NCBI RefSeq assembly: GCF_009914755.1
Contig: NC_060929.1
DNA: 64,000 bases
Reading direction: 5' to 3' (one strand)
From: the human T2T-CHM13v2.0 reference genome, Homo sapiens
Shown here: positions 37,955-58,971 of the stretch, piece after piece
Numbering within the stretch: position 1 is the stretch's first letter
Layout of the letters: the number at the start of each line of letters is the position of its first letter
Made by a program: the position numbers and the translations under genes
Notes under the pieces: generated by a model
What the model was told of the DNA's origin: nothing
What the model saw: only the letters and a program-made list of their open reading frames with translations
The model's database searches: none

Positions 37955-41911
<3,957 letters not shown>

Positions 41912-54224: not shown

Positions 54225-54264
<40 letters not shown>

Positions 54265-54990
54265 ATATAATATATATTACATATATTATATATTATATAA
54301 TATATCACATATATTATATAATATATCACATATATATCACATATATTATATAATATATCACATATATATCACATATATTATATATCACATATATATCACA
54401 TATATTATATAATATATCACATATATTATATATTACATATATTATATATCACATATATATTATATATTACATATATTATATATTATATTACATATATTAT
54501 ATATTATATTAAATATATTGTATATTATATATAATATATTAAATATATTGTATATTATATATAATATATACACCATATATTATATATTATATATAATATA
54601 TGGTGTATATATACTATATACATTATATATACACTATATACACTATATATTATATATAATATACTATATATAATATAGTATTATAGTATATAATACTATA
54701 TATAATATGTATTATAGTATTATATAATATATATACTATATATAATATAGTATATTTATTATATAATACTATATATTATATATAGTATTATATTATATAA
54801 TACTATATATTATATATAGTATTATATTATATAATATATATTATATATAGTATATATATTAGTATATATACTAAGTATATATACTAGTATATATACTAAG
54901 TATATATACTAGTATATATACTAAGTATATATACTAGTATATATACTAAGTATATATACTATATATTATATATATAAAAACATACATATA
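54224..54990. repeat. (CA)n followed by a ~0.7-kb AT-rich compound array with palindromes
   Basis: TATATCACA, TATATTA and TATACTA blocks; perfect 23-bp-arm inverted repeat 54564-54612; 4 x 25-bp unit 54861-54960. Confidence 0.95.
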
Positions 54991-55241
54991 GGCTGGTGCA
55001 GTGGCTCACTTGGACAAGTTTTATATATATGTATGTTTATTGTATATATGTGTATATATGTGTATATTATTTTATATACATTTATATATTTATATTCATA
55101 TATAATAATTATATATATATATAATAGGAGGTTGAAACTGCAGGGAACCGTGATCATGCCACTGCACTCCTGTCTGGGCAACAGAGTGAGACACTGTCTC
55201 AAAAAAATAAATAAATAAATAAATATTTAAAAAGAACCCAG

Positions 55242-56012
<771 letters not shown>

Positions 56013-56036
56013 AAAAAGAAGAAAAGAAAAGAAAGG

Positions 56037-56862
56037 AAGGGAAGGGAAGGGAAGGGAAGGGAAGGGAAGGGAAGGGAAGGGAAGGGAAGGGAAGGGAAGG
56101 GAAGGGAAGGGAAGGGAAGGGAAGGGAAGGGAAGGGAAGGGAAGGGAAGGGAAGGGAAGGGAAGGGAAGGGAAGGGAAGGGAAGGGAAGGGAAGGGAAGG
56201 GAAGGGAAGGGAAGGGAAGGGAAGGGAAGGGAAGGGAAGGGAAGGGAAGGGAAGGGAAGGGAAGGGAAGGGAAGGGAAGGGAAGGGAAGGGAAGGGAAGG
56301 GAAGGGAAGGGAAGGGAAGGGAAGGGAAGGGAAGGGAAGGGAAGGGAAGGGAAGGGAAGGGAAGGGAAGGGAAGGGAAGGGAAGGGAAGGGAAGGGAAGG
56401 GAAGGGAAGGGAAGGGAAGGGAAGGGAAGGGAAGGGAAGGGAAGGGAAGGGAAGGGAAGGGAAGGGAAGGGAAGGGAAGGGAAGGGAAGGGAAGGGAAGG
56501 GAAGGGAAGGGAAGGGAAGGGAAGGGAAGGGAAGGGAAGGGAAGGGAAGGGAAGGGAAGGGAAGGGAAGGGAAGGGAAGGGAAGGGAAGGGAAGGGAAGG
56601 GAAGGGAAGGGAAGGGAAGGGAAGGGAAGGGAAGGGAAGGGAAGGGAAGGGAAGGGAAGGGAAAGGGAAGGGAAGGGAAGGGAAGGGAAGGGAAGGGAAG
56701 GGAAGGGAAGGGAAGGGAAGGGAAGGGAAGGGAAGGGAAGGGAAGGGAAGGGAAGGGAAGGGAAGGGAAGGGAAGGGAAGGGAAGGGAAGGGAAGGGAAG
56801 GGAAGGGAAGGGAAGGGAAGGGAAGGGAAGGGAAGGGAAGGGAAGGGAAGGGAAGGGAAGGG
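56037..56862 (+). repeat. (AAGGG)125-A-(AAGGG)40 pentanucleotide tract, 826 bp
   Basis: Counted from coordinates: pure 56037-56661, one extra A at 56662, pure 56663-56862. Preceded by AAAAG x2 and AAAGG x1. Confidence 0.98.
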
Positions 56863-57130
56863 AAAGCCGACTACCACATGTTCTCATTTATAAGTGGGAG
56901 CTAAATGATGACAAATCGTGAAAACAAAGAAGTCAGCAACAGACACTGGGGCTTCCTTAAGGATGGAGGGTGGGAGCCAGGAGGGGGGCAGAAAAAATAA
57001 CTATTGGTTAGTAAGTTTAATACCTGCGTGGTGAAATAATCTGTACAACAAACCCTCGTGACACAAGTTTACCTATATAACAAACCTACACATGTACCCC
57101 TAAACCTAAAATAAATTAAAAAAATAAAAC
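56863..57130 (+). mobile_element. L1P(A/B)-class 3'-end fragment
   Basis: accacatgttctcatttataagtgggagctaaatgatg...aataatctgtacaacaaaccc...acaaacctacacatgtacccctaaacctaaaataaa. Confidence 0.9.
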
Positions 57131-58971
57131 CACTTAAAAAAGTCACAATCCCCAGGAAAACAAAAAGCTACACATCTGGAGAATCTAGTACCCCAAGATT
57201 AATTATACAATGTGGTAGAAAGTGGTGCTAAGAACTATTAAGCTGATTTTAATAAAAAGGGCAAATATCTCTGATTCCATTTTTTCCAATAAATTCCTAT
57301 AAGCAGGTGAAAGAACACAGTACACTTAGTTTCCTTGTGTTAAGAAAGAGCTTCCTTTTTTTTCTTTTTAGAATCTTTGAGCCACTACTGTGATTAAAAT
57401 AGCACTGTATACTGTTTTGTTTTTGTCGTTCAAGAGAAATGTAAATAATGCATTATCAAAGTATCTAAATATCTGAAACAACTGTTGATATGCTGACAGA
57501 TTATGTGGATGAAAATAAGCCAGTCTAAATGTAAATAAATTAATAAAATATGTAAGAACAATTAAAACTGGCCTTTAATGTTGAGATATTGTTTGAGAAA
57601 TAAGAATATGAGATTACATATATATATAGTAGTCTCTGCTTGACTCATAAAATTAGAGAACCCTACAGCTCTCCAAGCCCAGATATCTGTGGGCTCTCTG
57701 CTGTCCACAGTACAAAGAATCTGGCATGTACATTATGCAAGAGTGGAAACCAAGCCCAAACAGATCAGGGAAATAGTACTGTTTAAATTGTCATGCCAGC
57801 AATAGGACAACTGAAAATGACACCCCCACAGCATTGTTTTCTCTGCACAGTGAATTTCACAAGTGCTCTCTCATAGAGGGAGACATATATGCCTGCAGCT
57901 TCCTCCTCCTCTGGGCCTCTCTCTGAGTGTAATAAAGGAAAGAAGAGAGAGAAGCAGATCTGTTAGGTCTCCATGAGGCAGGCTTGTCAGATATCCATGA
58001 TACCAGGCCAGCGGGTACTGTGGCAAAATCACACTGTGGGCCAACAAGGGAGATAACTAACCAATTGCCTTCTAAGGCAGTCTGCCTTGCAAATGGTCTT
58101 GAAGTTGTGAACAGAAGCCCTAGGGAGTTGCAATGGCCAAGTCCTGGCTTTAGATTAGCTAGCTGAGGAAGAAGGAGCCCTGAAGTGTTAATGACAATCT
58201 ACTCCACCCACTCACCAGCTACTGGCCCTCCTCAGCCTCTCTTTCCTCTCTGTTTCTTTCTCTCACAGTCTTGACCATGGATTTCTACCTTTGCACTTTC
58301 CTTTTCTAAGTTTTCTTTAGAAACCAAAATGGGGAGGGTGAAAAAGATGATCTTAGGCAGAGATGAAAAAGTTAGTTTAGTGGCAGAAAAGAACAATAAA
58401 CTAAAGGAAATGGAATAATTGAGAAAGAGCCAAATAAAGAGAATAGCCATTATGGACTGAATTGTGGTTCCTTAACAACTCAAAATCAGGTGCTCTTATA
58501 GAGAAAAGAAATGCCTCCTTTTGGCAGAAAAATCAGTAACTCACTATTGCACTGTTTATTGCACAATTTATCATCAGTGGAACTTATGAGTTAACACAGG
58601 ACATTTGGCACTTTAGGTCCTGTTAGTCCAGAATCCCAGCATGTTGGACTATGGAAATATTTTTACTAGAGTCACAAAGGGTTAAGCATGGAATTAAAAA
58701 GAAAAGGGAAGAGAGCCAAGTACAGTGGCTCACATCTGTAATTCCAGCTATTCAGAAGGGTCCCTTGAGCTCAGGAGTTCAAACCCAGCCTGGGCAACAC
58801 AGTGAGACCCTGTCTCTAAAAAATAAAGGGAAGGGAAGACATATGGAATGAAAACAGCATTGCTGAAATTCATTTTTATTAAATAACCCAACATTTTTAA
58901 ATGGGGATATGACAATAAAATATTCTGGCTGAGAGGGGCTAAGGAGTGCTGTGTTAAAAACAGTGACTTCT

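What the first reader, a model, noticed from the sequence alone, without database searches (positions are those of the whole stretch)
56013..56862. RFC1/CANVAS-type (AAGGG)165 expansion arising from an Alu poly(A) tail
Seen: an Alu right arm ends at 56012. Its tail reads AAAAAG AAG AAAAG AAAAG AAAGG and then 165 AAGGG units with a single 1-nt interruption. Known: the CANVAS mutation in RFC1 intron 2 is an AAGGG expansion in an Alu tail, where the benign alleles include AAAAG and AAAGG, and such homopurine repeats can form G-quadruplex or triplex DNA and impede replication. Inference: this is an independent locus showing the same AAAAG>AAAGG>AAGGG progression within one allele. Its purity implies a recent, unstable, probably highly polymorphic expansion. 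It is intergenic here (downstream of BHMT, towards JMY by recalled gene order), so any effect would be on chromatin, replication or regulation rather than a known disease.
Basis: partly seen in the sequence, partly recalled or inferred. Interest (0 to 1): 0.85.

Follow-up and report, generated by a model that had tools for sequence, protein, structure and literature searches.

The report
Long AAGGG repeat from Alu tail
An 826-base run of the five-letter unit AAGGG has grown out of the tail of an Alu element between the genes BHMT and JMY; it is real and unusually long and pure, but it is a known kind of unstable repeat with no known effect here.

Summary
A right-arm-only Alu ends at about 56012. 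Its tail reads AAAAAG AAG AAAAG AAAAG AAAGG, then (AAGGG)125, one extra A at 56662, then (AAGGG)40 up to 56862. The tract fills the Alu poly(A) position exactly and abuts an old dispersed repeat, an L1 3' end by recall.

From match counts in this assembly (T2T-CHM13), this is the longest uninterrupted AAGGG run. The runner-up has 86 units, also in an Alu tail. Thirty-two sampled loci with at least 10 units have only 10-18 units inside impure purine tracts. RFC1 itself carries the short AAAAG-type allele in this genome.

The kind is known. AnGm pentamers born in Alu tails, and non-RFC1 (AAGGG)n loci, have been catalogued and profiled as triplex-forming, replication-stalling DNA. I could not test polymorphism, recency or the ape state. 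The assembled length carries a caveat, because CHM13 HiFi coverage drops out in GA-rich DNA.

No paper naming this locus was found in main texts; supplements were closed.

Verdict: a real, extreme member of a known class. It is probably neutral and unstable. Interest is moderate to low.

The parts
55542..55866 (+). Full-length Alu (left and right arms) with a run of about 27 A, directly upstream. This is context, and it served as the Alu probe.
   Evidence: sequence. One search gives Metazoa_SRP sub-threshold matches at 55553-55667 and 55686-55833.
55867..56012 (+). Right-arm-only (5'-truncated) Alu whose tail carries the repeat
   Evidence: single SRP-like monomer at 55867-56014, E 1.7e-9. 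BLAST aligns Alu positions 129-289 at 85.7% identity; 181-nt period, 1.9 copies, 88% match with the upstream Alu right arm.
56013..56036 (+). A-rich remnant of the Alu tail: AAAAAG AAG AAAAG AAAAG AAAGG
56037..56661 (+). (AAGGG)125, uninterrupted. It is a perfect homopurine mirror repeat over 623 nt.
56662..56662 (+). Single extra A, the only interruption. It may be a real variant or a homopolymer consensus error; this is undecided.
56663..56862 (+). (AAGGG)40, uninterrupted
56863..57129 (+). 3' boundary: an old dispersed repeat (L1 3' end by recall) that starts right after the tract. The wider flank 56863-58400 is single-copy as a whole.
   Evidence: the only full-length match is the locus itself at 100%. 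The first ~267 nt match dispersed copies at 81-84% (4126 first-look candidates, 40 scored).

Best explanation
This is a microsatellite born from the poly(A) tail of a 5'-truncated Alu. A-to-G changes in the tail created AnGm units, and replication slippage amplified them. The G-rich unit AAGGG took over the distal part and grew to 165 units, leaving A-rich 'fossil' units next to the Alu body. The product is a long homopurine/homopyrimidine mirror repeat with a GGG run every 5 nt. It should behave like the RFC1 (AAGGG)n tract physically: it should form a triplex (H-DNA) and possibly G-quadruplexes, stall replication forks in one orientation, and change length easily. It lies 48 kb beyond the BHMT 3' end and 55 kb before JMY, in no annotated transcript. 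The most likely biological consequence is therefore a neutral, length-variable site. Shown here: the anatomy, the Alu-tail position, its rank in this genome, and the structural motifs. Inferred: the order of motif change, recency, instability, and structure formation in cells.
For: Anatomy. The Alu monomer ends at about 56012-56014. The tail remnant and 125+40 units follow. A dispersed repeat starts right at 56863.

Class behaviour in this genome. 14 of 32 sampled loci with at least 10 AAGGG units have a same-strand Alu 3' end within 250 nt upstream with at least 85% purine between. 14 of 16 Alu-tail loci are A-richer next to the Alu than at the distal end. The second-longest locus is an Alu followed by AAG (AAAAG)6 (AAGGG)86. 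Its five paralogues, at 99-100% flank identity, carry tails of 49-218 nt built from A-runs, AAAAG, AAAGG or AGGGG. The motif and length of such a tail therefore change within the lifetime of recent duplications.

Structural motifs. The tract holds 41 non-overlapping G3N1-7 quadruplex motifs, against 11 and 2 on the two strands of the other 63 kb. It has 623 nt of perfect mirror symmetry.

Literature. (A2G3)n, but not (A4G)n, forms H-DNA in vitro and stalls replication in yeast and human cells (abstract). Genome-wide (A2G3)n repeats overlap S1-END-seq peaks, up to about 90% for very long tracts, and the signal is nearly lost in G1 arrest (section read). 68% of pentanucleotide repeat loci map to Alu elements, and 96% of those to the poly(A) tail (passages).
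Against: No target-site duplication for the truncated Alu could be recognised, so the tail assignment rests on position only.

Only 14 of 32 comparator loci are clearly Alu-linked, so AAGGG runs also arise elsewhere.

The temporal order of motifs cannot be read from one allele.

[quoted passage not shown] That argues against assuming high polymorphism.

None of 21,278 BG4-ChIP peaks overlapped (A2G3)n repeats, so quadruplex formation in cells is doubtful.

No read-level, population or ape data were available.
Confidence: 0.8

Rival explanations
1. Assembly artefact. The true CHM13 tract is much shorter, longer or less pure, because GA-rich DNA is where HiFi coverage fails and ONT-based patches were used. 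The extra A at 56662 may be a consensus error.
For: Nurk 2022 passages: HiFi coverage was lacking across GA-rich sequence, and gaps were filled from the ONT-based CHM13v0.7 assembly. Polishing preprint passages: 218 low-HiFi-coverage loci, about 78-81% of them GA-rich, with a warning that microsatellites are prone to repeat shortening.
Against: An 826-nt tract is far shorter than HiFi or ONT reads, so spanning reads should exist. Near-perfect periodicity (99% match, 0% indels) is not what an unpolished noisy patch looks like.
Confidence: 0.07
2. The tract is real but old, fixed and fairly stable. It would be a long AG-rich tract shared by humans and perhaps apes, not a recent or polymorphic expansion.
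For: [quoted passage not shown] At a recalled rate of about 1.2e-8 per base per generation, 826 nt would stay free of substitutions for 100,000 generations with probability of about 0.37 (my arithmetic). Purity alone therefore does not force a very recent origin.
Against: The 32 sampled comparators are all short (10-18 units) and embedded in decayed mixed tracts, which is what old AAGGG tracts look like. The paralogue series shows fast turnover of such tails. Pure long hPu/hPy repeats are the ones that form H-DNA and are unstable (review passages).
Confidence: 0.12
3. The tract is a functional cis-element, for instance a GGAA-core binding array, chromatin boundary or replication-timing element, that affects BHMT, JMY or the neighbouring lncRNA.
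For: Each unit contains a GGAA core (sequence). The hub table lists no RefSeq functional element here. No tool result speaks for function.
Against: It lies inside a nest of Alus, an (AT)n tract and an L1 fragment. It is 48 kb and 55 kb from the nearest coding genes. No paper linked AAGGG with BHMT, JMY, DMGDH or 5q14 in a meaningful way (222 papers held at least 2 of the 5 terms, 15 were listed, and the only listed paper holding AAGGG was an unrelated polymerase paper).
Confidence: 0.04

Closest known systems
RFC1 intron 2 (AAGGG)n expansion in the AluSx3 tail (CANVAS)
   Same: Same unit, same strand relation to an Alu (it replaces or extends the poly(A) tail), and A-rich units at the Alu-proximal edge. 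It has the same homopurine mirror and GGG-every-5-nt architecture, which gives triplex and quadruplex in vitro and replication stalling.
   Different: Different chromosome and no host gene. It has 165 units, against >400 in affected alleles. The Alu here is only a right arm. In this very genome RFC1 carries AAAAAAG (AAAAG)10 AAAAAG, 63 nt, after a full Alu at C4:39,318,076-39,318,138. There is no disease link.
Alu-tail AAGGG tract at G000:C5:70,560,511-70,560,940 (SMN duplication region)
   Same: An Alu body followed by A-rich units, then pure AAGGG, with 86 units. It is the only other run above 60 units allowed by the counts.
   Different: It has a full-length Alu with a recognisable target-site duplication, and it lies in a segmental duplication with five paralogues that lack the expansion. 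The window locus is single-copy.
Genome-wide non-RFC1 (A2G3)n and other AnGm Alu-tail pentanucleotide repeats
   Same: Same origin and composition class. Catalogued in hg19 (Hisey 2024, Table S8, not seen), in 28,446 pentanucleotide loci, and as 5 (AAGGG)n + 3 (CCCTT)n high-density 1-kb peaks in CHM13.
   Different: Typical members are short and impure: 10-18 pure units in 58-376-nt mixed tracts in all 32 sampled. This one is 125+40 units and 97% one motif.
FXN intron 1 (GAA)n, another Alu-derived H-DNA-forming purine repeat
   Same: An Alu-derived homopurine mirror repeat that forms triplexes and stalls replication (review passages; Alu link cited).
   Different: It is a trinucleotide, arises from the central A-rich linker by recall, is intragenic, and silences its gene.

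Membership tests
Alu poly(A)-tail-derived AnGm pentanucleotide repeat | The repeat starts directly at the 3' end of an Alu body on the same strand | tested here: met
   The Alu monomer ends at 56012-56014. The purine tract starts at 56013.
Alu poly(A)-tail-derived AnGm pentanucleotide repeat | A-rich remnant of the tail at the Alu-proximal end | tested here: met
   AAAAAG AAG AAAAG AAAAG AAAGG. The G fraction is 0.24 in the first 25 nt and 0.56 in the last 25 nt. The same polarity holds in 14 of 16 Alu-tail loci.
Alu poly(A)-tail-derived AnGm pentanucleotide repeat | Target-site duplication bracketing the Alu plus tail | tested here: inconclusive
   No convincing duplication was seen by eye. 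The 5' junction lies in the A-run of the upstream Alu.
RFC1/CANVAS expansion | AAGGG unit | tested here: met
RFC1/CANVAS expansion | Located in the AluSx3 tail of RFC1 intron 2 | tested here: not met
   The window is C5:79,608,001-79,672,000. The RFC1 exons and the (AAAAG)-type Alu tail are at C4:39.26-39.32 Mb.
RFC1/CANVAS expansion | Size in the pathogenic range (>400 units per the review passage) | tested here: not met
   165 units, against the threshold quoted
RFC1/CANVAS expansion | Population alleles differ in motif and length; the biallelic state causes disease | not testable with these tools
   No other human genomes or phenotypes were available.
H-DNA / G-quadruplex-forming homopurine mirror repeat | Uninterrupted homopurine strand with mirror symmetry | tested here: met
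   623-nt perfect mirror, and an 854-nt purine-only tract
H-DNA / G-quadruplex-forming homopurine mirror repeat | Four or more G3 runs with loops of 1-7 nt | tested here: met
   41 non-overlapping motifs
H-DNA / G-quadruplex-forming homopurine mirror repeat | The structure actually forms in cells at this site | not testable with these tools
   There is class-level S1-END-seq evidence only.

The most novel reading that the evidence does not exclude
The longest pure AAGGG tract of the reference human genome is a human-lineage, hypervariable expansion. Some haplotypes would reach RFC1-like sizes. It would act as a replication barrier and S1-sensitive triplex site in cycling cells. It would also be the main sink or source of fully repetitive AAGGG read pairs, and so would bias motif-level short-read screens for CANVAS. 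It would then be a natural, disease-free model of AAGGG instability.
Probability: 0.2. Interest if true: 0.55.

Novelty: new member of a known kind. Interest (0 to 1): 0.35.

Why it matters
It shows that an AAGGG tract of CANVAS composition, 165 units long, exists outside RFC1 in an apparently ordinary haploid genome, in a gene-free setting. That makes it a possible natural control for asking what AAGGG DNA does by itself (replication stalling, triplex formation, somatic and germline instability) apart from any RFC1 effect. There is also a practical side. In CHM13-based alignments, only a handful of places can accept 125-150-nt reads made purely of AAGGG, and this is the largest. It may therefore attract or contribute such reads in short-read repeat screens; this is an inference and was not tested. 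The chr5 paralogue series found in passing gives a within-genome view of how fast Alu tails switch between AAAAG, AAAGG, AGGGG and AAGGG.

Tried and rejected
1. Listing every long AAGGG locus with an end-anchored pattern. I bounded the other loci from the counts instead. A reference-based DNA search with the pure tract returned nothing, because that search skips simple repeats. The loci behind the remaining 36 forward and 18 reverse matches therefore stay unplaced.

These were Hisey 2024 Table S8 of (A2G3)n loci, the CHM13 microsatellite-peak tables, and the list of low-HiFi-coverage loci. I cannot say whether this locus is listed in them.

4. The published polishing paper was not held under its DOI or a recalled PMC id.

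5. Text searches for the locus found nothing relevant. These used gene names, approximate coordinates and RFC1 off-target terms.

6. No target-site duplication of the truncated Alu was found by eye.

7. Bacterial-type promoter, terminator and ORF tools were not run. The tract is stop-free in all frames simply because of its composition, and it lies in human intergenic repeat DNA.

8. Rfam sub-threshold hits to mir-1268 and mir-3135 were rejected as Alu look-alikes. All are below the gathering scores.

Full report
**What is there.**
- After ...GAGACTCCGTCTC, the sequence from 56013 reads AAAAAG AAG AAAAG AAAAG AAAGG.
- Then come (AAGGG)125 at 56037-56661, one extra A at 56662, and (AAGGG)40 at 56663-56862. 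AAAG follows, then non-purine sequence.
- The 826-nt tract is 495 G and 331 A with no pyrimidine. The purine-only stretch is 854 nt, 56013-56866.
- Tandem Repeats Finder scores it 1652, with 166.6 copies, 99% matches and no indels.
- No other AAGGG or CCCTT run of 3 or more units occurs in the 64 kb.

**The element that carries it.**
- Rfam gives five sub-threshold 7SL/SRP-like monomers in a row: 55243-55364 and 55393-55541, then 55553-55667 and 55686-55833, then a lone one at 55867-56014. That means two full Alus followed by a right-arm-only Alu.
- BLAST with the middle Alu as probe aligns its positions 129-289 to 55851-56011 at 85.7% identity. TRF sees the same relation as a 181-nt period with 1.9 copies.
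- On the 3' side, the 1,538 nt after the tract match only themselves at full length. Their first ~267 nt match thousands of dispersed copies at 81-84% (4126 first-look candidates, 40 scored). From the sequence I recall this as an L1 3' end, but no repeat library was available to name it.
- The tract therefore fills exactly the slot of the Alu poly(A) tail, and the locus is not part of a segmental duplication. I could not identify a target-site duplication.

**How unusual it is inside the window.** The Alu probe finds 52 Alu 3' ends, and 49 have a recognisable tail. The other 48 tails are 4-63 nt with a G fraction of at most 0.30. This one is 854 nt with a G fraction of 0.59.

**How unusual it is in the genome.** The window's assembly (3.12 Gb, 24 contigs; the hub names it T2T-CHM13v2.0) could be searched by pattern.
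- Ten units: 445 forward and 247 reverse overlapping matches. This locus accounts for 116+31 = 147 of them by arithmetic.
- Twenty-five units: 215 forward and 18 reverse matches. This locus gives 101+16 = 117. A second locus at C5:70,560,511-70,560,940 gives the 62 listed matches, which means 86 units. None lies on contigs 1-4.
- That leaves 36 forward and 18 reverse matches that were not listed. No other uninterrupted run can therefore exceed 60 units on the forward strand or 42 on the reverse.
- The 125-unit run is thus the longest uninterrupted AAGGG run in this assembly. The claim concerns pure runs only; interrupted tracts were not ranked.
- I fetched all 32 loci listed for contigs 1-4. 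Each has 10-18 pure units inside a mixed purine tract of 58-376 nt.
- It also matches a CHM13 microsatellite survey that counts only 5 (AAGGG)n and 3 (CCCTT)n 1-kb bins holding at least 300 bp of perfect microsatellite (table and methods passages).

**Is the Alu-tail origin general?** Of the 32 comparators, 14 have a same-strand Alu 3' end within 250 nt upstream with at least 85% purine in between. Two more are borderline: L014 at 441 nt with 97% purine, and L027 at 47 nt with 74% purine. The remaining 16 show none. Roughly half of such loci are therefore Alu-tail-derived. Among the 16 clearly Alu-linked loci (14 comparators, the 86-unit locus and the window), 14 are A-richer in the 25 nt next to the Alu than in the last 25 nt. 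For the 14 comparators alone it is 12 of 14.

**A natural experiment found on the way.**
- The 86-unit locus is a full Alu followed by AAG (AAAAG)6 (AAGGG)86 AAG.
- Its 1,056-nt 3' flank occurs six times on contig 5 at 99-100% identity, at 70.56, 70.60, 71.09, 71.13, 71.82 and 21.30 Mb.
- SMN Tudor-domain exons lie at 70.82 and 71.40 Mb, so five of the copies sit in the SMN duplication region.
- The six paralogous Alu tails differ widely:

| Copy (Mb) | Tail length | Composition |
|---|---|---|
| 21.30 | 49 nt | A19G, A5G, (AAAAG)3 |
| 71.13 | 106 nt | AAAAG-dominated; longest run (AAAAG)9 |
| 70.60 | 111 nt | AAAAG-dominated; longest run (AAAAG)10 |
| 71.82 | 218 nt | AAAAG-rich, with runs (AAAAG)21, then (AAAGG)6, then (AAAAG)5 |
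| 71.09 | 211 nt | AAAAG units, then (AAGGG)2, (AGGGG)23, (AAGGG)2 |
| 70.56 | 469 nt | (AAAAG)6 (AAGGG)86 |

- Tails of one and the same Alu have therefore moved through the whole AAAAG/AAAGG/AAGGG/AGGGG series while the surrounding DNA stayed 99-100% identical.
- This supports motif succession and rapid expansion as properties of the class. It does not prove them for the window locus.

**Comparison with the archetype in the same genome.** Pfam RFC1 C-terminal exons lie at C4:39,261,259-39,265,403 on the minus strand. In the 60 kb upstream that I fetched, the only run found by my scan (4 or more AAAAG, or 3 or more AAAGG or AAGGG units, both strands) is at 39,318,078-39,318,132. It reads AAAAAAG (AAAAG)10 AAAAAG, 63 nt, after a full Alu. 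This matches the reference-type (AAAAG)11 allele at the end of AluSx3 described by Rafehi et al. 2019 (passages). That this is 'intron 2' rests on that description, not on an exon map of mine. In this genome RFC1 is therefore unexpanded, while the chr5 site carries 165 AAGGG units.

**How it most likely works.**
- Origin is inferred: A-to-G changes in the Alu tail, slippage, takeover by AAGGG, and fossil A-rich units left at the proximal edge.
- Physical behaviour is inferred from the class. The tract is a 623-nt perfect homopurine mirror repeat. It holds 41 non-overlapping G3N1-7 motifs, against 11 and 2 on the two strands of the rest of the window.
- Hisey et al. 2024 report that (A2G3)n, unlike (A4G)n, blocks polymerases, forms H-DNA in supercoiled DNA, and stalls forks in yeast and human cells in one orientation (abstract).
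- They also report that (A2G3)n repeats annotated genome-wide overlap S1-END-seq peaks increasingly with length, up to about 90% (the paper gives that figure for both (A2G3)n and (A4G)n). The signal at (A2G3)n is almost abolished in G1. None of 21,278 BG4-ChIP peaks overlapped them (section 21 read).
- Triplex formation during replication is therefore the better-supported structure, and quadruplex formation in cells is doubtful.
- By the hub's table the site is 48,111 nt beyond the last BHMT exon and 55,503 nt before JMY, with no RefSeq functional element. A gene-level effect is unlikely.

**What stays open.**
- Recency and polymorphism were not testable. At a recalled mutation rate of about 1.2e-8 per base per generation, an 826-nt tract would stay substitution-free for 100,000 generations with probability of about 0.37 (my arithmetic). 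Purity suggests youth or ongoing homogenisation but does not prove a very recent event.
- The assembled length carries a specific caveat. CHM13 HiFi coverage fails across GA-rich sequence, and gaps were filled from an ONT-based assembly (passages). There were 218 low-HiFi-coverage loci, about 78-81% of them GA-rich, and microsatellites were said to be prone to shortening (preprint passages). The lone extra A could be such an error.

**Novelty.** Main-text searches found no paper discussing this locus:
- AAGGG with BHMT, JMY, 5q14 or DMGDH;
- AAGGG with approximate coordinates;
- AAGGG with CHM13 (33 papers held both terms and 25 were listed; I opened six of the listed papers: PMC11305138, PMC11477012, PMC12855859, PMC11610458, PMC12214015 and PMC12433003);
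- RFC1 off-target terms.

Supplements, where such loci would be listed, were closed. The kind is well known, and the locus is masked as a repeat in NCBI's file.

**Verdict.** It is a new, extreme member of a known kind. Its interest lies mainly in being a natural AAGGG tract outside RFC1 and a possible mapping sink for AAGGG-only reads.

Noticed in passing
L001 and L034-L038 (G000:C5 at 70.56, 71.82, 71.09, 71.13, 70.60 and 21.30 Mb): Six 99-100% identical paralogous copies of one Alu flank, five of them around the two SMN copies, carry very different tails: A-run/AAAAG (49 nt), AAAAG-dominated (106 and 111 nt), AAAAG-rich with (AAAGG)6 (218 nt), (AGGGG)23-dominated (211 nt), and (AAAAG)6(AAGGG)86 (469 nt). 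This is a within-genome series of Alu-tail motif switching.
   Followed up: yes
L041, G000:C4:39,318,076-39,318,138: In this assembly the RFC1 Alu tail is the short reference-type allele, AAAAAAG (AAAAG)10 AAAAAG. No AAGGG or AAAGG run of 3 or more units occurs in the 60 kb fetched.
   Followed up: yes
window 54228-55123: There is an (AC)17.5 run, then about 860 nt of imperfect AT/TA-rich microsatellite (TRF: 54263-54976 and 55022-55123, 68-69% matches). It lies less than 1 kb upstream of the AAGGG tract. (AT)n is the other repeat class that gives S1-END-seq signal, so two structure-prone tracts sit side by side.
   Followed up: no
window 55127-56012: This is a nest of four Alu pieces on the same strand: a 3' fragment, two full Alus and a right arm. 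The sub-threshold Rfam hits to mir-1268 and mir-3135 here fall inside the Alus and are look-alikes, not genes.
   Followed up: partly
window 41755-41818: The second-longest Alu tail in the window (63 nt) holds (AAAG)7. It is an early-stage purine microsatellite of the same birth process.
   Followed up: no
listing, contigs 1-4 (L002-L033): 16 of the 32 loci with at least 10 AAGGG units show no Alu 3' end upstream by my probe. Their origin (other retroposon tails or non-repeat purine tracts) was not worked out.
   Followed up: partly
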